DNA of 64,000 nucleotides from Escherichia coli. Lineage in GTDB: Bacteria > Pseudomonadota > Gammaproteobacteria > Enterobacterales > Enterobacteriaceae. The position numbers and the translations under genes were made by a program. Below the pieces are notes generated by a model. The model saw only the letters and a program-made list of their open reading frames with translations, did no database searches and had not been told where the DNA came from. The stretch lies in NCBI RefSeq assembly GCF_003019035.1, contig NZ_CP027447.1, one strand, 5' to 3'. Below are positions 354 to 8,903 of the stretch, in pieces. Each line of letters begins with the position of its first letter. Position 1 is the first letter of the stretch.

Positions 354-2135
354 ATGAATGCTGCCCTGACTGAACGACTGGTTTATGTCGCCCGCGCGGC
401 ACGTGACGCGGGGCATGGTAAACGCGGTGCAATATACGACGCTGCCTGTGCTGAACTTGGCATGTCCCGCGCCACTCTGCTGCGCAGGCTGAAGGAGGTC
501 TCTGTGACTGATAAACGCAAAAAACGCGCCGATGCCGGGCGCAGCGCTCTGACCCGCGACGAAGCCGCGCTGATATCTGCCACACTGCGTGAGGCCACCC
601 GCAAGAACGGTAAGCGTCTCTATTCCATCGCAGATGCAGTGGAAACCCTGCGGGCTAACGGCTTTATCTCCGCAGGCAGAACAGATGAAACCACCGGTGA
701 GTTTTTCCCGTTGTCCGAAGATGCCATCAGTCGTGCCCTGCGTAACTATGGCCTGCACCCGGAACAACTGGATGCCCCTGCACCGCATACCGAAGTGGCC
801 AGTCTGCATCCCAATCATGTCTGGCAGATTGACGCCTCACTCTGCACGCTTTACTACCTGAGCAATGGACATAAAGGGCTGCAGGTGATGGACAGCGCGA
901 AGTTCTACAAGAACAAGCCCGCTAACCTTGCCCGTATCGCCAGTGACCGCGTGTGGAGTTACGAGATTACCGACCATGCCAGCGGCTGGATTTACGTTGA
1001 GTATGTGACGGGCGCGGAATCCGGTGAGAACCTGTGTTCTGTGCTTATCAACGCCATGCAGGAGCGCGGTGGCGCAGACGTGCTGCACGGCGTGCCGAAA
1101 ATACTCTATCTCGACCCTGGCTCGGCAAACACCGCGGGTATGACGAAAAACATGTGCCGCTCACTGGGCATCGACCTGATAGCGCACAGGCCGCATAACG
1201 CCCGCGCCACCGGACAGGTGGAAAAGGCGCGTGACATTATCGAACGCAAGCTGGAGCCGGGTCTGAAGTTCCGGCCGGTTCACAGTCTGGAAGAACTCAA
1301 CGCGCTGGCCGCGAAATGGCGCAGCCACTTTAACGCCACGGCTGTTCACAGCCGCCACGGTAAAACCCGCACGGATATCTGGCTGAAGATTACTGCTGAG
1401 CAGCTGAAAAAAGCGCCTTCCGTTGAAGTATGCCGTGAACTGGCTGTGGCGACACCAGAACTCCGCAAAGTCACGCCAAAACTTCGTGTCTCGTTCCGGG
1501 GCACTGAATTTGACGTATCAACGGTACCGGGCGTACTGGTTGGTGAAAAACTGATGATTACCCGTAACCCATGGCGCAGCGATGTGGCACAGGTGGTTCT
1601 GACCGGTGAGGACGGCCACGAGACGTTCTTCCTGGTCGAAGAGGTCAGAAAGAACGAGTTTGGCTTTGCTGAAGGCGCGGCGGTATTTGGCGAAAGTTAC
1701 AAAGCCCTGCCGGAAACCCCGGCACAGATGGCGGCAAAAGAAACCGAAGCGCTGGTTACCGGTACAGACAACGCCGCAGATGCAGCCGCCGCACGCAAGG
1801 CGAAGGCGCTGCCGTTCGGCGGGCGGCTTGACCCGTATAAACATATCGACGACACCACACTTCCGGCCTATATGCCGAAGCGTGGTCAGGCCTCTGACGT
1901 ACGCGGGCCGCGCACTGAACAACGTCCCATGACTCATGTGGAGGCCGCGAAAGCCCTGCGCGATAAGTTCAGCGCCGACGGCCTTACCTGGACGCCGGAA
2001 CATTACCGCCAGTTAACGGCACAGTACCCGGACGGCGTACCGGAAGCTGCACTGGATGAAGTCATGGCCACGCTGACCACGCCGGCCCGCAGCAGCGTTA
2101 TCAGCAGCGTTATCAGCATTGTTAACGGCAACTGA
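354..2135 (+). CDS. Mu-like DDE transposase (A-like, integrase-core family)
   Basis: 593 aa ORF, ATG at 354 with GGAGG upstream; integrase-core-like segment (HVWQIDAS...); sits directly upstream of a B-like ATPase as in Mu A-B. Confidence 0.8.
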   Translation: MNAALTERLVYVARAARDAGHGKRGAIYDAACAELGMSRATLLRRLKEVSVTDKRKKRADAGRSALTRDEAALISATLREATRKNGKRLYSIADAVETLRANGFISAGRTDETTGEFFPLSEDAISRALRNYGLHPEQLDAPAPHTEVASLHPNHVWQIDASLCTLYYLSNGHKGLQVMDSAKFYKNKPANLARIASDRVWSYEITDHASGWIYVEYVTGAESGENLCSVLINAMQERGGADVLHGVPKILYLDPGSANTAGMTKNMCRSLGIDLIAHRPHNARATGQVEKARDIIERKLEPGLKFRPVHSLEELNALAAKWRSHFNATAVHSRHGKTRTDIWLKITAEQLKKAPSVEVCRELAVATPELRKVTPKLRVSFRGTEFDVSTVPGVLVGEKLMITRNPWRSDVAQVVLTGEDGHETFFLVEEVRKNEFGFAEGAAVFGESYKALPETPAQMAAKETEALVTGTDNAADAAAARKAKALPFGGRLDPYKHIDDTTLPAYMPKRGQASDVRGPRTEQRPMTHVEAAKALRDKFSADGLTWTPEHYRQLTAQYPDGVPEAALDEVMATLTTPARSSVISSVISIVNGN

Positions 2136-2145
2136 GGAGGAAAAC

Positions 2146-3312
2146 ATGCTGGTACTGAAGCAGCAACTGAAAGAGGCCCGTATCCCACAGGCGGTGGTGG
2201 CGAGAGCTGTCGATGTTTCTGAGGCCACGCTGGCCCAGATTGTGAATCATAACGCGTGGCCCCGCACCCGCCCCGGAGAAGTGCGCCGGCGTCTTGCGTC
2301 CTGGCTGGAAAGTCAGGGGATTGATACAACGAAGAGTTTTGATGCTGTACAGGGCGCGGCCACGCCCCGTACAGCGGGTACCACAGATAAAACGAGCCTC
2401 AGTGAGGAAGAGAATATGTTACTCAAAAAACAGGTGTTATTTCCAGCAACCAAAAAAGCGTTTGGTCTTTTCCGTGACCCGTTCGCCGACGAAGCCATGC
2501 AGGGTTCTGATGATGTGTTCACCACCCCGGACATTCGCTACGTGCGTGAGGCGCTGTACCAGACAGCCCGTCATGGTGGGTTTATGGCCGTCATCGGTGA
2601 GTCCGGTGCGGGTAAATCCACGCTGCGCCGCGACCTGACTGAACGTATCAACCGCGAGAATGCGCCGGTAATTGTTATCGAGCCATACATCATCGCTATG
2701 GAAGACAACGATGTGAAAGGGAAAACCCTGAAGGCAGCAGCTATTGCCGAAGCCATTATCAGTACCATCGCACCACTGGAAAGCATCAGACGCAGTCAGG
2801 ACGCCCGCTTTCGCCAGTTGCATCGCGTCCTGAAAGACAGCAGCCAGGCGGGGTTCAGCCACGTTCTGGTGATTGAGGAGGCTCACAGTCTGCCCATTCC
2901 GACACTGAAACACCTCAAACGCTTTTTTGAGCTGGAGTCCGGTTTCAAAAAACTGCTGTCCATCGTGCTGATTGGTCAGCCGGAACTGGCGACAAAACTG
3001 TCTGAACGCAATATGGAAGTCCGTGAAGTCGTTCAGCGCTGTGAGGTGGTCGAACTTCTGCCTCTGGACAATAACCTTGAAGAGTTTCTGACGTTCAAAC
3101 TGCAACGGGCCGGTAAACAACTGACGGACATTATGGACGCCAGTGCAGTGGATGCCATACGTGCCCGCCTGAGCAATCCGGGAAGTCATCGTAAAAATAT
3201 GGTCAGCCTGCTGTATCCGCTGGCCGTCAGTAACCTGGTGATAGCCGCCATGAATCTGGCCGCTGAAATCGGGGTTCCACAGGTCAACGCTGACGTTGTC
3301 AAAGGGGTTTAA
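2146..3312 (+). CDS. Mu B-like AAA+ transposition ATPase
   Basis: ATG 2146 preceded by GAGGAGG; Walker A GESGAGKST, Walker B-like VLVIEEAHSL; N-terminal HTH-like segment; overlaps A stop. Track ORF starts at TTG 2119, but the ATG at 2146 has the better RBS. Confidence 0.8.
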   Translation: MLVLKQQLKEARIPQAVVARAVDVSEATLAQIVNHNAWPRTRPGEVRRRLASWLESQGIDTTKSFDAVQGAATPRTAGTTDKTSLSEEENMLLKKQVLFPATKKAFGLFRDPFADEAMQGSDDVFTTPDIRYVREALYQTARHGGFMAVIGESGAGKSTLRRDLTERINRENAPVIVIEPYIIAMEDNDVKGKTLKAAAIAEAIISTIAPLESIRRSQDARFRQLHRVLKDSSQAGFSHVLVIEEAHSLPIPTLKHLKRFFELESGFKKLLSIVLIGQPELATKLSERNMEVREVVQRCEVVELLPLDNNLEEFLTFKLQRAGKQLTDIMDASAVDAIRARLSNPGSHRKNMVSLLYPLAVSNLVIAAMNLAAEIGVPQVNADVVKGV

Positions 3313-3314
3313 TA

Positions 3315-3584
3315 ATGAAATCCACCACAGGTATCAACCAGCAAATCAGCAAAGTGCAGTCAGCCATTATGGCGCTTAAGGCGACGAACACGGATGTACA
3401 AAGCATCACCATCAGGGGTAACAAACCTGTCATCCGCGTTTCCCGGAGTGCGCATTGCATGCGCATGCTTGAGCAGGGAAAGGCCTGTTATCTGTATACC
3501 GGACATGACCACAGGGGATATTTCCGTCAGGGCGTTTTCGAACTGCACGGCTGTCGCGTCGTGTGGCCGGAATCTTTGTGGTAA
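3315..3584 (+). CDS. hypothetical small protein (89 aa) between B and gam
   Basis: ATG 3315 with AAAGGGG RBS, 2 nt after B stop; no recognisable motif. Confidence 0.5.
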   Translation: MKSTTGINQQISKVQSAIMALKATNTDVQSITIRGNKPVIRVSRSAHCMRMLEQGKACYLYTGHDHRGYFRQGVFELHGCRVVWPESLW

Positions 3585-3611
3585 TCAGCACAACTGGAGA
3601 AATCATAAAAT

Positions 3612-4142
3612 ATGGCAAAAAGTACAAAAGGGGCAAAACGTATCAAGTCCGCAGCGGCACTCTGGGTACCAGGGACACGCGAAGAGGTCATTGAGGGCAT
3701 CAGACTGCTCGGTGACGCACAACGTGAACTGGTCAGGGCTGAAACAGAAATGAATGACGCCATTGGCGATATCACCGCACGTTATGCCCCGCTCACCGAG
3801 AGCCTGAAAAAACGCATGGCCGAACTGCAGTCCGGTATTCAGACATGGTGTGAGGCACACCGTGATGAACTGACCGGCAACGGGAAGGTGAAGTTCGCTA
3901 ACCTCACCACCGGCGAGGTGCAGTGGCGAAACCGTCCGCCATCAGTCAGTATCCGTGGAGCGGATAATGTTATTGAACTACTGAGACGTCTGGGGCTTGA
4001 GCGCTTTATTCGTGTAAAAGAGGAAATAAATAAAGATGCCATTCTGAATGAAAAAGAGGCCGTGAAAAATATTCCCGGTATTACCATAAAAAGTGATATT
4101 GAGGATTTTTCAATAATTCCTTTTGAGCAGGATGTGCAGTAA
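3612..4142 (+). CDS. gam: Gam-like host-nuclease inhibitor (Mu Gam / Ku-like DNA end-binding)
   Basis: 176 aa; N-terminus MAK...KRIKSAAA, ETEMNDAI, and C-terminal EDFSIIPFEQ closely match recalled phage Mu Gam. Confidence 0.88.
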   Translation: MAKSTKGAKRIKSAAALWVPGTREEVIEGIRLLGDAQRELVRAETEMNDAIGDITARYAPLTESLKKRMAELQSGIQTWCEAHRDELTGNGKVKFANLTTGEVQWRNRPPSVSIRGADNVIELLRRLGLERFIRVKEEINKDAILNEKEAVKNIPGITIKSDIEDFSIIPFEQDVQ

Positions 4143-4184
4143 ACACACCACGTTAATTATTTAATAAAAATATTTTCTTTTTTA

Positions 4185-4221
4185 TTCCGGCGTCAGCGCC
4201 GTGGGCTTCTGCACGCCGGAA
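4185..4221 (+). promoter_or_regulatory. inverted repeat / hairpin in AT-rich intergenic region after gam
   Basis: ttccggcgt (4185-4193) pairs with acgccggaa (4213-4221), preceded by a T-rich tract; may be a gam terminator or an operator for the next operon. Confidence 0.3.
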
Positions 4222-4239
4222 ACAGAGGAGAATTAAATT

Positions 4240-4434
4240 ATGATATTTAAATGTATTCAGTGCGAGAGGGATATAACAGCCCTGCGTTTTCACAGCGCCA
4301 TCGCCGTGATGTCCGGTAAATACCACATCCCTGCGGTACGCGTCACCCTGGTCTGCCCGTACTGCAGCCAGCATTTTTCGGCGGACGTGCCCGTCATGGA
4401 ATTCTCCCGCCCTGACAGGGAGGACGCGCAATGA
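4240..4434 (+). CDS. small zinc-ribbon protein (64 aa; CxxC...CxxC)
   Basis: ATG 4240 with GAGGAG RBS; Cys pairs CIQC and CPYC about 30 residues apart. Confidence 0.55.
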   Translation: MIFKCIQCERDITALRFHSAIAVMSGKYHIPAVRVTLVCPYCSQHFSADVPVMEFSRPDREDAQ

Positions 4435-4703
4435 TTACCCCACAGGAAGCACGACAGCGCACCCGAACCCTTGTTGAACACTATGTCAACGAGTGTGAAT
4501 GCCGCGACCTCACCGATGTGAAGCACGTCCTGACGGCGCTAATCAGCATGGCCGCTCAGGCCATTGTGGCGACCAACGGAAAGGCGGCTGCCCTGCAGGT
4601 ACTGGTGAACACACTCACCCACACGGCAGAGCATGAGGTGCCGTACCGGATGGAAACCACTGCAGAAGGCGGCCTGCACATCACCGTCAGCCGGAAGCAC
4701 TGA
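4431..4703 (+). CDS. hypothetical protein (90 aa)
   Basis: ATGA start/stop overlap with the preceding gene, GGGAGG RBS; no recognised domain. Confidence 0.5.
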   Translation: MITPQEARQRTRTLVEHYVNECECRDLTDVKHVLTALISMAAQAIVATNGKAAALQVLVNTLTHTAEHEVPYRMETTAEGGLHITVSRKH

Positions 4704-4712
4704 GGGCGCGGC

Positions 4713-5009
4713 ATGACACGAAACACCGAACTCACCCGCACCGCCCTCTACCGTCTGGCCCTGCACCGTTTCGGGCCGGACGCACAGGCCCTGAAACTGA
4801 CAGAAGAGGCCGCTGAACTGGCGGCCAGTGCTGCCCGCAATCTGAACGGACAGGGCAACGAAAGTGACCTCGCGGCAGAGCTGGCAGACGTGGAAATCAT
4901 GACAGAGCAATTGCGCCTTCAGGGGATGGACCGGCTGATTGACTTCCACAAACAGAAAAAACTGGAACGTCTGGCTGCACGACTGGGCGTGATTTACACG
5001 AACGAGTAA
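4713..5009 (+). CDS. MazG-like nucleotide pyrophosphohydrolase-domain protein (putative)
   Basis: 98 aa; EEAAELA and ELADVEI motifs resemble the EExxE and ExxD helices of small MazG/NTP-PPase proteins; GAGGG RBS. Confidence 0.45.
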   Translation: MTRNTELTRTALYRLALHRFGPDAQALKLTEEAAELAASAARNLNGQGNESDLAAELADVEIMTEQLRLQGMDRLIDFHKQKKLERLAARLGVIYTNE

Positions 5010-5023
5010 CCGGGAGGCATTCA

Positions 5024-5239
5024 ATGGCTGACATACTCAGGGAAATCACCGCATGGATACTGATTCTTACTGGCCTGGCGACATGCCTCAGTGCGGGGGC
5101 AGCCCTGGCTGCCCTGCTGATGCACATAACAACACAGTGGTTATGGGAAAAGCTTAAAGCAGCATACAGCCTGAAAGAGCTGTCCGACGCTGTCCGGGCA
5201 TGGAAACGGCAGAAAAATACCGGAGATACAGAACAATGA
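5024..5239 (+). CDS. small membrane protein (71 aa, one predicted TM helix)
   Basis: ATG 5024 with GGGAGG RBS; hydrophobic segment ITAWILILTGLATCLSAGAALAALLM; ATGA overlap with the next gene. Confidence 0.5.
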   Translation: MADILREITAWILILTGLATCLSAGAALAALLMHITTQWLWEKLKAAYSLKELSDAVRAWKRQKNTGDTEQ

Positions 5240-5919
5240 CAGACCAGAATAAACACATTGAGAAACTGAAAAAGTTGCTGGCGCTGGCCGCATCCGGCAA
5301 CCCGCACGAGGCCGCTCTGGCACTGCGCCGAGCCCGTAAACTGATGGATGTTCACGGCATCACACATTCCGACATTGCTATGAGTGATATTGATGAAACC
5401 ATCAGTCATTACTGGCCGACAGGCAGTCTCCGTCCACCGCGCTACATGCTGGGCCTGATGAACATCATCCGCGAGGCATTTGGTGTTAACTCCATCATTC
5501 ACCCCGGCACGCATCCGTCTGTGGGGTTCTACGGTAACCGGGAACGAGCGGCACTGGCTGCGTACACCTGGGAAGTGCTGGTCCGCCAGCTGAAAAAGGC
5601 GCGTCAGCAGTATATCAGCGCACAGAACAAAAGAATAAAAAACGCCACCCGTACCAGCCGTGGAGACCAGTTTGCTGAAGGCTGGGTACTGGCCGTTATC
5701 AGTGAAATACAGTCCTTTGCCCTGACCGATGATGAGCGTGAACTGATGCAACAGTGGCTGGAACATAAATACCCGCAAACGCAAACCACCAGGGCGCGTA
5801 AACCGGGAAGAAGCCGCAATGGCGACGCCTCGCGCTATGCGGGGTTTCGTGAAGGGCAGAACGTCAGACTGCACCGCCCGGTCAGTGGGCAGGAACAACA
5901 GAAACTGGAGGCCAGATGA
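5236..5919 (+). CDS. DUF2786-like phage protein (227 aa)
   Basis: N-terminal motif KLKKLLALAASGNPHEAALALRRARKLM is typical of the DUF2786 family; GGAGA RBS. Confidence 0.55.
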   Translation: MTDQNKHIEKLKKLLALAASGNPHEAALALRRARKLMDVHGITHSDIAMSDIDETISHYWPTGSLRPPRYMLGLMNIIREAFGVNSIIHPGTHPSVGFYGNRERAALAAYTWEVLVRQLKKARQQYISAQNKRIKNATRTSRGDQFAEGWVLAVISEIQSFALTDDERELMQQWLEHKYPQTQTTRARKPGRSRNGDASRYAGFREGQNVRLHRPVSGQEQQKLEAR

Positions 5920-6146
5920 TTACGCTATCAGGTAACAGCCGGAAATTAAAAGCCTGCCGAATATCTGCCAGATACCTTTTTGCCCGCGCCTTTTTTAAGA
6001 ACGTCAGGCCGGGGATCACAATTGGTGTTATTGCCGGACGCGAACAGGTTGAAAAATACATGTCAGGTGCATGGTGGGATAACGACCCTGTCATTGCTGC
6101 CCGTAATATTCATATCAGTTGGGGGGATATTCAGAATGACGGCTGA
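5916..6146 (+). CDS. hypothetical protein (76 aa)
   Basis: ATGA overlap with DUF2786 gene stop, GGAG RBS 5 nt upstream; no domain recognised. Confidence 0.4.
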   Translation: MITLSGNSRKLKACRISARYLFARAFFKNVRPGITIGVIAGREQVEKYMSGAWWDNDPVIAARNIHISWGDIQNDG

Positions 6147-6351
6147 ATCTGTTGTATGTGCCCTGTTCTGGTATTGTTTTGTCGGTTGGTGTACTGCTGA
6201 ACTGCACCGCCGTTCAGGGTTTTATTCACGTTACAGTGGTGCCGGCTACTGGATTAGCTGGTCGGTGATGTTCCTGTGCTGGCCTGTGGCGCTTCCTTTA
6301 TATGTCGGTTATATCGGTGGCGCAGGTAAAAGGAGCAACGATGATGACTAA
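6136..6351 (+). CDS. small membrane protein (71 aa, two predicted TM helices)
   Basis: ATG 6136 preceded by GGGGGG; two hydrophobic, W/C-rich helices; 3' end overlaps gemA start. Confidence 0.45.
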   Translation: MTAESVVCALFWYCFVGWCTAELHRRSGFYSRYSGAGYWISWSVMFLCWPVALPLYVGYIGGAGKRSNDDD

Positions 6352-6793
6352 ACAACGTCTTATCCAGCTCATTCATATTGCCCGTAATGAACTGGGTATG
6401 GATGAAGACACCTACCGCCAGATGTTACAGGGGCTGACCGGTAAAGCCTCAACCAAAGGAATGGATACCACACAACTAAACTGCGTGCTGGAATCCATGA
6501 AAAGGAAAGGCTTTCGCGTTAAGCCTGCCGGAAAAGCCAGCTCCGGTTTACCGCTGGATAACCATCCGCAGTCCAGGAAAATCCGTGCGCTATGGCTTGA
6601 AATGGCTGCTGCCGGCATTGTTCGTGACCGTTCAGAAAATGCATTAGCGCGGTGGATCAAGCGGGAAACGGGCATCAGCGCCCTGCGCTGGCTCAATACT
6701 GAACAGGCAAGCAGTGTTATTGAGAAACTGAAGAAGTGGCAGCACAGAGCTGCGGGAGTAAAACATGAGCGACCTGAATCAGTTTCGAAGTAA
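6341..6793 (+). CDS. gemA: GemA-like protein (Mu gp16 family)
   Basis: ATG 6341 with AAAGGAG RBS; N-terminus MMTKQRLIQLIHIARNELGMDEDTYRQ matches the GemA family; 3' end overlaps mor by 29 nt. Confidence 0.8.
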   Translation: MMTKQRLIQLIHIARNELGMDEDTYRQMLQGLTGKASTKGMDTTQLNCVLESMKRKGFRVKPAGKASSGLPLDNHPQSRKIRALWLEMAAAGIVRDRSENALARWIKRETGISALRWLNTEQASSVIEKLKKWQHRAAGVKHERPESVSK

Positions 6794-7163
6794 AGGGCCG
6801 GAACTCCTGGTGGAGCTGGCACAGCATACCTCTGAGACCGTTCGCGAGATTATTGATATTGAGCCCGCAATTGCCGACCAGATTGGTCAGGCCGTCGCGA
6901 ACCGAATGATGCAGGTCTGGGGCGGGCAAAACGTTTATTTCCCGATGGGCATGGTATGGAAGGTCAGTCAGCGCGACCGGGAAATCTTCAGGGAGTTTAA
7001 CGGACGCAACCACCACGAACTGGCCCGCAAGTTTGGTGTTTCGCTTCAGTGGGTCTACAGCGTGGTTAAGCGGGTCAGAAAAGAAGAACTGGATCGGATG
7101 CAGGGCAGGTTGTTTGATGAAGATCTGCCAGAGGAGACGAAAGACGTTAACAAATCCAGATAA
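6765..7163 (+). CDS. mor: Mor-like middle-operon transcriptional activator
   Basis: 132 aa; GGQNVYFP motif and C-terminal HTH resemble Mu Mor; GGGAG RBS. Confidence 0.82.
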   Translation: MSDLNQFRSKGPELLVELAQHTSETVREIIDIEPAIADQIGQAVANRMMQVWGGQNVYFPMGMVWKVSQRDREIFREFNGRNHHELARKFGVSLQWVYSVVKRVRKEELDRMQGRLFDEDLPEETKDVNKSR

Positions 7164-7205
7164 TTCCTGCTTGTTAAAGTCCTTTCAAAAATCTCCTTAT
7201 TGTAT

Positions 7206-7240
7206 AAAAGCACGGTAGACCCCTTACCGTGCTTTTTTTA
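7206..7240 (+). terminator. rho-independent terminator after mor
   Basis: Stem agcacggta / taccgtgct with 7-nt loop, followed by a T7 run (7234-7240). Confidence 0.6.
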
Positions 7241-7277
7241 TGCTCTCTCTTTAGTATTCAGGATGCAGGGAGAAAAT

Positions 7278-7910
7278 ATGTTTGACGTTTCGTTGTTAAA
7301 TCTGCCATGGGCAACACTGGTGACCCTGACCAGTGGCTATATTGGGTATTTTATTGCGAATGTGGGACTGAAGGATCACCACAAGCCCATTGAGGTGACT
7401 TTTTCTTCGCTGATTTTTGGCCTGACAGCAATGATGGCTTACCAGGCTGTTATGTGGGCAGGTCTGAATGCCTGGCTGGCAACACCACCAGCACTTCTGT
7501 GTGCCGTTACATGCGGTGCGTGGTGGCGCAGGTACGGTCGCAAATGGATGTACAGATTACTGTGGAATAATGATATTTCATGGTCTGACGATACCAGCTC
7601 AGCATGGCAGGCAATGTTTGATCAAACAGGCTTCAGCGTTACCGAGGTCAGAGTGATTCTTCGCGATGGTTCCGGTATGATGTCACGGCTGCCAGGGAAC
7701 TTTGAAGAGTGGCCTAACGGTCCGTTTACCCTGGGGAATAAAGGCGATATGGTTCTTTACGTCACGCACAGCAGCCCTTCAGGCAGTAACGAATGGGAAG
7801 AGTATAAAGGCGTGGTTGATAAGTACTGGGGAGCTCTGGCAACCTATATTCCAGCAGATCAGATTGCCAGAGTGGAGATCAGGCGCGTTCGTGCAACGAA
7901 CGATGAATGA
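7278..7910 (+). CDS. orphan membrane protein (211 aa; three N-terminal TM helices plus about 125-aa soluble C-terminal domain), function unknown
   Basis: ATG 7278 with AGGGAGA RBS 6 nt upstream; hydrophobic helices at roughly residues 8-30, 40-63 and 67-83; sits where Mu carries late activator C; no family recognised. Confidence 0.6.
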   Translation: MFDVSLLNLPWATLVTLTSGYIGYFIANVGLKDHHKPIEVTFSSLIFGLTAMMAYQAVMWAGLNAWLATPPALLCAVTCGAWWRRYGRKWMYRLLWNNDISWSDDTSSAWQAMFDQTGFSVTEVRVILRDGSGMMSRLPGNFEEWPNGPFTLGNKGDMVLYVTHSSPSGSNEWEEYKGVVDKYWGALATYIPADQIARVEIRRVRATNDE

Positions 7911-8295
7911 TGTTTATTTTTTCCCTGGGGCAGGGGCTGCCGGCATAGTGGTTTTATTGGCAGAGGAAGACGATTCTCCTTTTCTACCGGAATCGCGCTC
8001 GAACGTCACGATGTGCTTGCTTTTGGGCTTTTCTGAGTAATCCAGGCTATCATGCTTATTGTTTTGAGTAGTCATTGGAATCATCCTTTTTGTTGCGGGT
8101 CATGTTTCAGCAAACTCGATTCTAAGTTGCCAGGAAGGATGATTTCAATGCCCGACTTATCTATCGTATAGCGGAAAAGAATTTCAGTTCTGTTCACCAG
8201 AACCCATGTTAACCCACTCCAATTCGTTATTTATCTCACGGATCCCCCTTCATTTATCTCATGTCTGATCAAATCAATAATCATCATGAATGTTT

Positions 8296-8312
8296 TGTTT
8301 ATAATTGGTTGA
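8296..8312 (+). promoter_or_regulatory. putative PhoP box upstream of slyB
   Basis: TGTTTA-N5-GGTTGA direct repeat about 125 bp upstream of slyB ATG; slyB is recalled as PhoP-activated. Confidence 0.35.
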
Positions 8313-8435
8313 TCCTACTTTCATTATGATTTGCTCATATTTGGTAGAACATGTAACCATGGATTCACATATGCCATATACTTTGACCATGAGGGATGCT
8401 TGCGTGGCGTTTCATGGTGAACAGGAGATTTTTCA

Positions 8436-8903
8436 ATGATTAAACGCGTATTGGTTGTTTCAATGGTAGGTCTGTCTCTTGTCGGTTGTGTTAATAACGA
8501 CACCCTGTCAGGGGATGTTTATACCGCTTCTGAAGCGAAACAAGTACAGAATGTCAGCTATGGCACCATCGTTAACGTACGTCCGGTACAGATTCAGGGC
8601 GGTGATGATTCCAACGTTATCGGTGCAATTGGCGGTGCTGTTCTTGGTGGTTTCCTGGGGAATACTGTTGGCGGCGGAACCGGGCGTTCTCTGGCTACTG
8701 CAGCAGGCGCTGTTGCAGGTGGCGTAGCCGGTCAGGGCGTACAGAGTGCAATGAACAAAACGCAGGGTGTCGAGCTGGAAATTCGTAAAGACGATGGTAA
8801 TACCATCATGGTGGTACAGAAACAAGGCAACACTCGTTTCTCTCCGGGCCAACGTGTCGTACTGGCCAGCAATGGCAGTCAGGTGACCGTTTCCCCGCGC
8901 TAA
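8436..8903 (+). CDS. slyB: outer membrane lipoprotein SlyB
   Basis: 155 aa; lipobox LVGC and Gly-rich core match E. coli SlyB. Confidence 0.95.
   Translation: MIKRVLVVSMVGLSLVGCVNNDTLSGDVYTASEAKQVQNVSYGTIVNVRPVQIQGGDDSNVIGAIGGAVLGGFLGNTVGGGTGRSLATAAGAVAGGVAGQGVQSAMNKTQGVELEIRKDDGNTIMVVQKQGNTRFSPGQRVVLASNGSQVTVSPR

What the first reader, a model, noticed from the sequence alone, without database searches (positions are those of the whole stretch)
5236..5919. DUF2786-like protein with basic C-terminal tail
The N-terminal motif (KLKKLLALAASGNPHEAALALRRARKLM) is characteristic of a widespread phage and plasmid domain of unknown function. Here it is fused to about 150 residues ending in an Arg/Lys-rich tail and is translationally coupled on both sides. 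Function is unknown; it is a candidate host-interaction protein.
Basis: partly seen in the sequence, partly recalled or inferred. Interest (0 to 1): 0.4.

Follow-up and report, generated by a model that had tools for sequence, protein, structure and literature searches.

The report
Uncharacterised DUF2786–DUF7168 phage replication-module protein
This is a real, well-conserved early gene of a Mu-like (BcepMu-type) prophage; it belongs to a large, already catalogued protein family of unknown function that sits among the DNA replication and transposition genes of phages, plasmids and integrative elements, so its identity is ordinary and only its function is open.

Summary
The ORF at 5236-5919 (+, 227 aa) is real. 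It matches Pfam DUF2786 (aa 8-44) and DUF7168 (aa 46-189), and PHROG 421 over its full length. All three are families of unknown function. It overlaps both neighbouring genes by ATGA. It lies in the early operon of a BcepMu-like transposable prophage that is 98% identical to Escherichia phage PhiKM and present in 121 of 5,426 complete E. coli genomes.

The two domains are not an ad hoc fusion. Every homologue examined has the same roughly 230-aa architecture.

It shows no homology to the Mu early proteins tested (gp11, gp12), and Mu itself lacks it. No experimental data were found for any member.

Context is consistent. In Mu-like phages it sits between Gam or DUF3164 and GemA/Mor. In virulent phages it sits beside SSB, primase and polymerase genes. 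In an ICE it follows DnaB-ParB.

Best guess (0.4): an accessory DNA replication/transposition factor acting through a conserved basic helical surface. The family is already known; interest is modest.

The parts
5236..5919 (+). CDS of the DUF2786+DUF7168 protein (227 aa plus stop); PHROG 421
   Evidence: ORF list and sequence. Pfam hits. PHROG 421 over the full length, E 1.4e-77. 98.7% aa identity to the PhiKM hypothetical protein XRL29416.1. PGAP names it 'DUF2786 domain-containing protein' in E. coli genomes.
5222..5239 (+). Ribosome-binding site GGAG (5222-5225) and the ATGA start/stop overlap with the upstream 71-aa gene (5236-5239)
   Evidence: Read directly from the sequence.
5257..5367 (+). 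DUF2786 domain (aa 8-44): two-helix hairpin (H3-18, H23-40). This is the most conserved part of the family, with E25, A29 and M37 invariant
   Evidence: Pfam PF10979. AlphaFold secondary structure, pLDDT 97-98. Conservation.
5371..5802 (+). DUF7168 domain (aa 46-189)
   Evidence: Pfam PF23771, E 2.9e-26, 92 bits against a cutoff of 25.5.
5389..5622 (+). KH-like beta-alpha-beta-beta-alpha core (aa 52-129: E52-57, loop 58-68, H69-82, E85-89, E95-101, H102-129). It has no GXXG loop, and its sheet and loops are the most variable part of the family
5584..5661 (+). Conserved basic segment (aa 117-142: R117, K121, R123, K132, R133, K135, R139, R142) spanning the end of helix 102-129, the loop and the start of helix 136-157. 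This is the proposed binding surface
   Evidence: Column statistics on 111 homologues. Its role as a binding surface is inferred.
5803..5916 (+). C-terminal region beyond the Pfam domain (aa 190-227): structured helix 196-207 with invariant G203 and near-invariant G207, then an Arg-rich end with conserved L212, V216 and G218
   Evidence: AlphaFold pLDDT ~97 up to residue 210 and ~70 afterwards. Conservation. Tail charge statistics.
5907..5919 (+). GGAGG (5907-5911) and the ATGA stop/start overlap (5916-5919) with the downstream 76-aa gene (PHROG 3681)
   Evidence: Sequence. PHROG hit for the downstream ORF.
354..7236 (+). Context: the early operon of the BcepMu-like prophage. It holds the transposase (354-2135), MuB/ExeA-like ATPase (2119-3312), Gam (3612-4142), MazG-like protein (4713-5009), a 71-aa ORF (5024-5239), the DUF2786/DUF7168 gene, a 76-aa ORF (5916-6146), GemA (6302-6793), Mor (6765-7163) and a terminator-like hairpin (7206-7236)
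   Evidence: Pfam, PHROG and NCBIfam hits. PhiKM annotation. Terminator scan.

Best explanation
The gene encodes a bona fide member of the DUF2786+DUF7168 family (PHROG 421). It is expressed as part of the early transposition/replication operon of a BcepMu-like transposable prophage.

I think it is most likely an accessory factor of the mobile element's DNA replication, transposition or maintenance machinery. It would act early after entry or induction.

The proposed mechanism is binding of nucleic acid, or of an acidic replisome or recombination partner. The binding surface would be the conserved basic surface built from three elements: the N-terminal hairpin (K10, K12, K13), the two long helices with their connecting loop (R117, R123, K132, R133, K135, R139, R142), and R188. 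The KH-like sheet would serve as a scaffold rather than a canonical KH nucleic-acid cleft.

Shown: family membership, the fixed architecture, a confident compact fold, the pattern of conservation, and the conserved gene neighbourhood.

Inferred: that neighbourhood reflects function, that the basic surface is the active surface, and what it binds.
For: Membership:
- Pfam DUF2786 and DUF7168 both score above their cutoffs.
- PHROG 421 matches over the full length. Homologues from virulent phages, plasmids and an ICE fall in the same PHROG.

Fold and conservation:
- AlphaFold gives pLDDT 94.4 and pTM 0.86.
- The family is basic, with median pI 9.6, and the basic residues listed above are conserved.
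- The hairpin and helices 102-157 are the most conserved regions (entropy 1.4-2.0 bits). The KH-like sheet and loops are the least conserved (3.1-3.75 bits, with insertions after residue 92).

Context:
- Of 79 IMG/VR loci, 71 have a MuB-like ATPase upstream, 72 have Gam or DUF3164 upstream, and 72 have GemA downstream.
- The same order is seen in B3, JBD24, and Desulfuromonas and Xanthomonas prophages.
- In the virulent phages PaMx74 and Mallos the homologue lies between exonuclease, MazG and a Gp2.5-like SSB on one side and DNA polymerase and helicase on the other.
- In 51-kb phage contigs it lies after DnaG primase, dUTPase and ThyA, and 35 bp upstream of a Pol III alpha gene.
- In another phage it is followed within about 1 kb by an SNF2 helicase gene, with an AAA_24 ATPase gene further downstream.
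- In a SPI-7-type ICE the order is ParA..DnaB-ParB-[this family]..DUF2857..TopB..SSB.
- In pCAR1 it lies about 2 kb downstream of mobI and near xseAB and ParB-like genes.

Selection: 11 synonymous against 3 non-synonymous changes relative to PhiKM.
Against: - No experiment exists on any family member.
- Guilt by association is weak evidence in compact phage operons, which also carry host-takeover and anti-defence genes.
- The canonical KH binding elements (alpha1 and GXXG) are absent and that region is variable, so the fold does not by itself argue for nucleic-acid binding.
- Mu replicative transposition needs no such phage factor, and Mu lacks the gene. Any role must therefore be accessory or lineage-specific.
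Confidence: 0.4

Rival explanations
1. Host-interaction, takeover or anti-defence protein. The conserved N-terminal DUF2786 hairpin would dock onto a conserved host protein, such as a chaperone, protease, nuclease or immune sensor, and neutralise or redirect it early in infection or after plasmid entry.
For: - The gene is located in an early operon alongside Gam, a known host-nuclease inhibitor.
- The family is present on conjugative plasmids within long runs of small co-directional genes.
- The hairpin is the most conserved element.
- From general knowledge: KH-like domains without GXXG often mediate protein-protein contacts.
- One DUF2786 protein appears, with a low score, in a mycobacterial ClpC1 co-IP list (PMC10433963).
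Against: - It matches none of the families of known function in the four libraries searched; PADLOC, which models defence rather than anti-defence proteins, gave no hit.
- It is absent from the supplementary tables of the plasmid leading-region anti-defence survey (PMC11541004).
- Its fixed architecture and 30-40% identity from E. coli to Desulfuromonas, at a syntenic position in 72 of 79 loci, are unlike the patchy, fast-evolving pattern typical of anti-defence genes.
- In virulent phages and ICEs it is embedded in replication genes.
- The ClpC1 listing concerns a different DUF2786 protein and was not validated.
Confidence: 0.2
2. RNA-binding regulator of the early transcript. The KH-like core and Arg-rich C-terminus would bind RNA to promote antitermination, stability or translation of the long early operon.
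For: - The top structural neighbours are RNA- or ssDNA-binding type I KH domains.
- This member has an arginine-rich C-terminus.
- The gene lies inside a ~7-kb polycistronic operon with overlapping genes.
Against: - The GXXG loop and alpha1 of KH are missing, and the equivalent cleft is the least conserved region.
- The tail's basic charge is not conserved across the family; net charge ranges from -5 to +8.
- The family occurs in plasmids, ICEs and virulent phages with quite different transcription programmes.
Confidence: 0.1
3. Sequence-independent DNA-architectural or partition-associated protein. A small basic protein would coat, bend or bridge the element's DNA, for example by assisting transpososome, ParB or nucleoid interactions.
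For: - The family is basic, with median pI 9.6.
- The gene is adjacent to ParB in a SPI-7-type ICE.
- It is close to H-NS and ParAB genes on Acinetobacter plasmids and to ParB-like genes on pCAR1.
Against: - No recognisable DNA-binding motif (HTH, RHH or HU-like) appears in the Pfam or structure searches.
- ICEHin1056, of the related ICEHin1056/SPI-7 group and with the same ParA-DnaB-ParB backbone, lacks the gene, so it is not an obligate ParB partner.
Confidence: 0.1

Closest known systems
Pfam DUF2786 (PF10979) + DUF7168 (PF23771) proteins = PHROG 421, e.g. Pseudomonas phage B3 ORF5, JBD24 gp17, PaMx74 gp65, and the Escherichia phage PhiKM hypothetical protein XRL29416.1
   Same: Same two domains, same ~225-240 aa length, and alignable end to end. 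Same position in Mu-like early operons. 98.7% identical to the PhiKM protein.
   Different: Nothing substantive; this protein is a member. Its C-terminus is more basic than the family median (net +7 against +3).
Type I KH (K-homology) nucleic-acid-binding domains (e.g. SF1, MEX3C, BICC1, KSRP, PCBP2)
   Different: Helix alpha1 and the GXXG loop are replaced by a variable 11-residue loop (58-68). The cleft-forming elements are the least conserved parts of the family. There is no sequence similarity and Foldseek gives E>0.1. The resemblance is in fold topology only.
Characterised or named early proteins of phage Mu (Gam, GemA, Mor, Kil, gp11, gp12)
   Same: Same operon and the same interval between gam and gemA. 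Gam, GemA and Mor homologues flank it in the window.
   Different: No homology. hhalign gives 0.1% and 0.9% probability against Mu gp11 and gp12. No DUF2786 or DUF7168 hit appears in any Mu ORF of that interval, so Mu lacks the family.
DciA / DnaA domain I type helicase operators (recalled from memory, not tested)
   Same: As I recall them, they are small basic proteins with a KH-like domain, a long helix and a basic tail, encoded in replication contexts and acting on DnaB. The present family lies two genes downstream of an ICE-borne dnaB, immediately after parB, and among primase and polymerase genes.
   Different: The profile search against all PDB sequences finds nothing. The KH topology here resembles type I rather than the type II-like fold I recall for those proteins. 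Mu-like phages encode no helicase. This is a lead only.

Membership tests
Pfam DUF2786 (PF10979) | Match to the family HMM above its gathering score | tested here: met
   aa 8-44, E 4.4e-11, 43.0 bits against a cutoff of 23.9. All 111 aligned homologues also match.
Pfam DUF7168 (PF23771) | Match to the family HMM above its gathering score, located C-terminal to DUF2786 | tested here: met
   aa 46-189, covering profile positions 2-139 of 140, E 2.9e-26, 92.2 bits against a cutoff of 25.5.
PHROG 421 (phage protein family, unknown function) | Full-length match to the PHROG profile | tested here: met
   aa 1-226 on profile positions 3-240 of 241, E 1.4e-77. Homologues from PaMx74, uncultured phages, pCAR1, an Acinetobacter plasmid and a Klebsiella ICE match the same PHROG.
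DUF2786+DUF7168 family | Fixed single architecture of about 215-250 aa with no additional domains | tested here: met
   143 of the 150 best representatives are 210-250 aa long. Nearly all full-length listed homologues carry both Pfam domains.
Type I KH domain | beta-alpha-alpha-beta-beta-alpha fold | tested here: inconclusive
Type I KH domain | GXXG loop between alpha1 and alpha2, with a conserved nucleic-acid cleft | tested here: not met
   The residue 58-68 loop, HYWPTGSLRPP, has no GXXG. The loop, beta2 and the variable loop have the highest entropy in the family (3.1-3.75 bits), and insertions occur after residue 92.
Characterised Mu early proteins | Detectable sequence or profile homology to a Mu early gene product | tested here: not met
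   hhalign gives 0.1% probability against gp11 and 0.9% against gp12. No DUF2786 or DUF7168 hit in Mu gp7-gp14.
Known anti-phage defence system proteins (PADLOC) | Match to a PADLOC model | tested here: not met
   No hit at E<=0.01.
Proteins with a solved structure | Sequence or profile similarity to any PDB chain | tested here: not met
   phmmer finds only chance hits at E 0.6-1.3. The profile search finds only a de novo designed helical protein at E 0.026.
DciA/DnaA-domain-I-like helicase operators | Binding to and loading or activation of a replicative DnaB helicase | not testable with these tools
   Needs biochemistry or multimer modelling with interface scores. Only neighbourhood is available: the gene lies after dnaB-parB in an ICE.

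The most novel reading that the evidence does not exclude
The DUF2786+DUF7168 family may be a previously unrecognised, broadly shared accessory component of mobile-element replication. For example, it could be an adaptor or operator that connects incoming or transposing DNA structures to the replicative helicase, primosome or SSB. This would be functionally analogous to small KH-like basic helicase operators such as DciA. It would be used alike by non-Mu transposable phages, virulent phages with their own polymerases, SPI-7-type ICEs and conjugative plasmids. Its absence from phage Mu itself would explain why it was never characterised.
Probability: 0.12. Interest if true: 0.6.

Novelty: already known. 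Interest (0 to 1): 0.3.

Why it matters
The gene itself is already in the databases. PGAP annotates it as a 'DUF2786 domain-containing protein', and both Pfam and PHROG have models for it. The finding therefore adds no new kind of element.

What is worth keeping is the picture that emerges from the survey:
- A single, rigidly conserved ~230-aa protein is a near-constant resident of the transposition/replication operon of non-Mu transposable phages (72 of 79 loci).
- The same family recurs in the replication modules of virulent phages, in the DnaB-ParB module of an ICE, and in plasmid backbones.
- Yet no member has an assigned function or a solved structure.

Because the model phage Mu lacks it, classical Mu genetics never touched it. 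A deletion and biochemistry study in PhiKM, B3 or JBD24 would be cheap and could assign a function to more than 2,000 sequence clusters.

Tried and rejected
- **Mu early proteins.** No homology: no Pfam hit in Mu gp7-gp14, and hhalign against gp11 and gp12 was negative.
- **Other annotation libraries.** NCBIfam and PADLOC gave no hit.
- **PDB by sequence.** Neither the single sequence nor the profile found a relative.
- **BFVD viral structures.** Thirty-one significant matches, all uncharacterised or labelled DUF2786/DUF7168.
- **AFDB50.** The library was not available.
- **Literature.** Searches for DUF2786, DUF7168, PF10979, phrog_421 and DUF3164 returned only incidental listings. The supplements of two plasmid leading-region or host-range papers held nothing useful: no hit in one, and a single uninformative table row for DUF2786 in the other. 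The ClpC1 interactome paper merely lists a different DUF2786 protein.
- **A tempting experimental link, rejected.** ICEHin1056 orf4, the gene after parB, has a 100,000-fold transfer defect (PMC3739013). It turned out to be a DUF2857 protein, and ICEHin1056 has no DUF2786 gene. That phenotype does not apply to this family.
- **'Plasmid leading region'.** I could not establish this. On the Acinetobacter plasmid the gene lies in a 30-kb block of co-directional small genes between rep and the relaxase. On pCAR1 it is ~2 kb downstream of mobI. This is suggestive only.
- **Weak recurrent Pfam hits across 111 members.** Only noise, e.g. Spore_III_AB in 10 members at E>0.02.
- **The search for related loci with the 111-sequence alignment.** This failed because no stretch was conserved enough. 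A 10-sequence sub-alignment worked.
- **Second AlphaFold job.** I did not use it for linker-fused dimer or partner tests. The tool returns no interface metrics, so a result would not have been interpretable.

Full report
**Observation**

The window carries an ORF on the + strand from ATG 5236 to TGA 5917-5919, encoding 227 aa.

- The start overlaps the stop of the upstream 71-aa ORF in ATGA (5236-5239). The stop overlaps the start of the downstream 76-aa ORF in ATGA (5916-5919).
- GGAG lies 10 nt upstream of the start, and GGAGG lies 4 nt upstream of the downstream start.
- An in-frame ATG at 5200 exists, but the 5236 start is better supported. The PhiKM annotation uses it, and 87 of 111 homologues begin at the aligned Met.
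- Residues 181-227 contain 11 K/R against 4 D/E.

The description is therefore correct. One adjustment is that the portion after the DUF2786 motif is 183 residues rather than ~150.

**Identity**

- Pfam gives DUF2786 (aa 8-44, E 4.4e-11) and DUF7168 (aa 46-189, E 2.9e-26), both above their gathering scores.
- PHROGs gives a full-length match to phrog_421, 'unknown function' (E 1.4e-77).
- NCBIfam and PADLOC give nothing.
- An exhaustive HMMER scan of 1.84 billion representative proteins finds 2,230 clusters at E<=1e-3 and 1,129 at E<=1e-10. Of the 150 best, 143 are 210-250 aa long, and most align from about residue 5 to about residue 220.
- In the word-indexed search, nearly all full-length listed homologues carry both Pfam domains. 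Sources name them only 'DUF2786 domain-containing protein' or 'hypothetical protein'.

The two domains are thus one fixed architecture, not a fusion peculiar to this phage.

**Where it sits**

The first ~8.3 kb of the window is the end of a BcepMu-like (genus Bcepmuvirus) transposable prophage. It is 98% identical to Escherichia phage PhiKM.

The gene order is:
- DDE transposase (354-2135)
- MuB/ExeA-like ATPase (2119-3312)
- Gam (3612-4142)
- small ORFs
- a MazG-like protein (4713-5009)
- a 71-aa ORF
- the DUF2786/DUF7168 gene
- small ORFs, including the 76-aa ORF (5916-6146)
- GemA (6302-6793)
- Mor (6765-7163)
- a strong terminator-like hairpin (7206-7236)

This order is supported. Homology to other E. 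coli genomes stops at ~8272, just upstream of slyB. The segment is present in 121 of 5,426 complete E. coli genomes, where PGAP already calls the gene 'DUF2786 domain-containing protein'.

**Structure**

An AlphaFold2 model built with a 111-sequence alignment is very confident (mean pLDDT 94.4, pTM 0.86). Its elements are:
- a two-helix hairpin (H3-18, H23-40), which is the DUF2786 part
- a short helix
- a beta-alpha-beta-beta-alpha unit (E52-57, loop 58-68, H69-82, E85-89, E95-101, H102-129)
- two further helices (136-157, 165-178)
- a C-terminal helix (196-207)

Only residues ~211-227 drop to pLDDT ~70. It contains invariant G203 and near-invariant G207.

Structure comparisons gave the following:
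- No PDB chain is related by sequence or profile.
- Foldseek against the PDB gives nothing better than E 0.1.
- In BFVD, 31 viral proteins match at E<1e-3. All are uncharacterised or labelled DUF2786/DUF7168. They come from very different phages: Sinorhizobium phiM12, Delftia PhiW-14, Serratia MTx, Gordonia Ghobes, Mycobacterium Hawkeye and Bacillus SP-15.

**Is it a KH domain?**

I do not file it as one. Helix alpha1 and the GXXG loop that define the KH nucleic-acid cleft are replaced by an 11-residue loop (HYWPTGSLRPP). Beta1, that loop, beta2 and the variable loop are the least conserved parts of the family (3.1-3.75 bits of column entropy), and most insertions fall after residue 92.

The most conserved parts are the N-terminal hairpin (1.4-1.6 bits) and helices 102-157 (2.0 bits).

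Conserved residues include:
- invariant E25, A29, M37 and G203
- conserved basic positions K10, K12, K13, R117, R123, K132, R133, K135, 139, R142 and R188

The family is basic, with median pI 9.6; this member has pI 10.1. The strong positive charge of this protein's C-terminus is not a family constant (net +7 here, median +3, range -5 to +8).

**Context across mobile elements**

Transposable phages:
- In 79 IMG/VR loci recovered with a 10-sequence sub-alignment, 71 have a MuB-like ATPase and 65 a transposase upstream.
- 72 have exactly one of Gam (37) or DUF3164 (35) upstream.
- 44 have the MazG-like gene.
- 72 have GemA and 61 have Mor downstream.
- The same order holds in Pseudomonas phages B3 (ORF5) and JBD24 (gp17), and in Desulfuromonas and Xanthomonas prophages.

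Phage Mu itself lacks the family. No DUF2786 or DUF7168 hit appears in its gam-gemA interval, and hhalign gives <1% probability against gp11 and gp12.

Outside transposable phages the homologue, still PHROG 421 over its full length, sits in replication, recombination or maintenance modules:
- In the virulent siphoviruses PaMx74 and Mallos it lies between exonuclease, MazG and a Gp2.5-like SSB on one side and DNA polymerase and helicase on the other.
- In 51-kb phage contigs it follows DnaG primase, dUTPase and ThyA, and lies 35 bp upstream of a Pol III alpha gene, which is followed by a RecA-like gene.
- In another phage it is followed within about 1 kb by an SNF2 helicase gene, with an AAA_24 ATPase gene further downstream.
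- In a SPI-7-type ICE of Klebsiella michiganensis the order is ParA..DnaB-ParB-[it]..DUF2857..AcaB-TopB..SSB.
- On pCAR1 it is ~2 kb downstream of mobI and near xseAB and ParB-like genes.
- On Acinetobacter conjugative plasmids it lies near H-NS, thermonuclease and ParAB genes.

tblastn finds the family in 175 of 50,697 phage records and 280 of 72,556 plasmid records.

**Mechanism**

No experiment bears on any member. Literature searches returned only incidental mentions.

ICEHin1056 orf4, the gene after parB, has a 100,000-fold transfer defect (PMC3739013). That gene is a DUF2857 protein, and ICEHin1056 has no DUF2786 gene.

On the available evidence I commit, at about 0.4, to the following. 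The protein is an accessory factor of the element's DNA replication, transposition or maintenance module. It acts through the conserved basic helical surface (hairpin plus helices 102-157 and their loop) on nucleic acid or on an acidic replisome or recombination partner. The KH-like sheet serves as a scaffold.

- Shown: membership, fold confidence, conservation pattern and synteny.
- Inferred: that synteny reflects function, which surface is active, and the ligand.

Rivals:
- a host-protein-binding takeover or anti-defence factor (0.2)
- an RNA-binding regulator of the early transcript (0.1)
- a DNA-architectural or partition-associated protein (0.1)

The remainder is 'something else'.

A speculative, untested analogy comes from my memory of DciA and DnaA domain I. 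These are small KH-like basic helicase operators, and the analogy is recorded as the most novel reading (~0.12).

**Novelty and verdict**

The gene is an already catalogued member of a known but uncharacterised family, so novelty is 'already known' and interest is modest (0.3).

The useful residue is the cross-element synteny. It singles out this family as a cheap, high-yield target for functional work, and classical Mu genetics could not have reached it because Mu lacks the gene.

Noticed in passing
window 7206-7910: A strong terminator-like hairpin (13-bp stem plus a T run, 7206-7236) closes the operon after Mor. Beyond it lies an ORF (probable start ATG 7278, end 7910) that matches phrog_12870 (unknown function) and has a hydrophobic N-terminal half. 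It has no Pfam, NCBIfam or PADLOC hit. It looks like a moron at the extreme prophage end and could be a superinfection-exclusion or lysogenic-conversion gene.
   Followed up: partly
window ~8272-8436: Homology to the same prophage in other E. coli genomes stops at ~8272, about 160 bp upstream of the slyB start (8436). The transposable prophage is therefore inserted in the slyB upstream region and might affect slyB expression.
   Followed up: partly
loci L019-L097 (IMG/VR), upstream of the DUF2786/DUF7168 gene: Gam (37 loci) and DUF3164 (35 loci) are mutually exclusive at the same operon position and never occur together. This suggests that DUF3164 replaces Gam, or is functionally analogous to it, in many transposable phages.
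   Followed up: partly
window 4713-5009; L011 5081-5659; L012 5160-5699: A short MazG-like NTP pyrophosphohydrolase (98 aa, matching only the C-terminal half of phrog_2245) lies two genes upstream. A MazG-like gene accompanies the DUF2786/DUF7168 gene in 44 of 79 Mu-like loci and in the virulent phages PaMx74 and Mallos.
   Followed up: partly
L071 6078-6983, L079 6108-6995, L087 6105-6998: Three of the four IMG/VR loci without Mu-like markers share a ~300-aa ORF directly upstream of the DUF2786/DUF7168 gene (31-51% identity to each other). The L079 and L087 copies gave no Pfam hit and L087 no PHROG hit; L071 was not scanned. It may be a lineage-specific partner.
   Followed up: partly
L100 5479-18695 (Klebsiella michiganensis chromosome) and L102 (ICEHin1056): The SPI-7-type ICE replication/maintenance module carries the DUF2786/DUF7168 gene plus a 141-aa ORF inserted between ParB and DUF2857. 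ICEHin1056 has ParB directly followed by DUF2857. The gene is therefore an optional insert in this ICE backbone.
   Followed up: yes
window 4240-4434: A 64-aa ORF (phrog_3401) with two CxxC pairs (CIQC...CPYC) looks like a small zinc-ribbon protein. Mu gp13, in the equivalent interval, also gives weak zinc-ribbon hits.
   Followed up: no
window 4897-5898 (- strand): A 333-aa antisense ORF spans the DUF2786/DUF7168 gene. It is probably a spurious open frame opposite real genes; the corresponding stretch of the near-identical PhiKM record is annotated only with the forward-strand genes.
   Followed up: no
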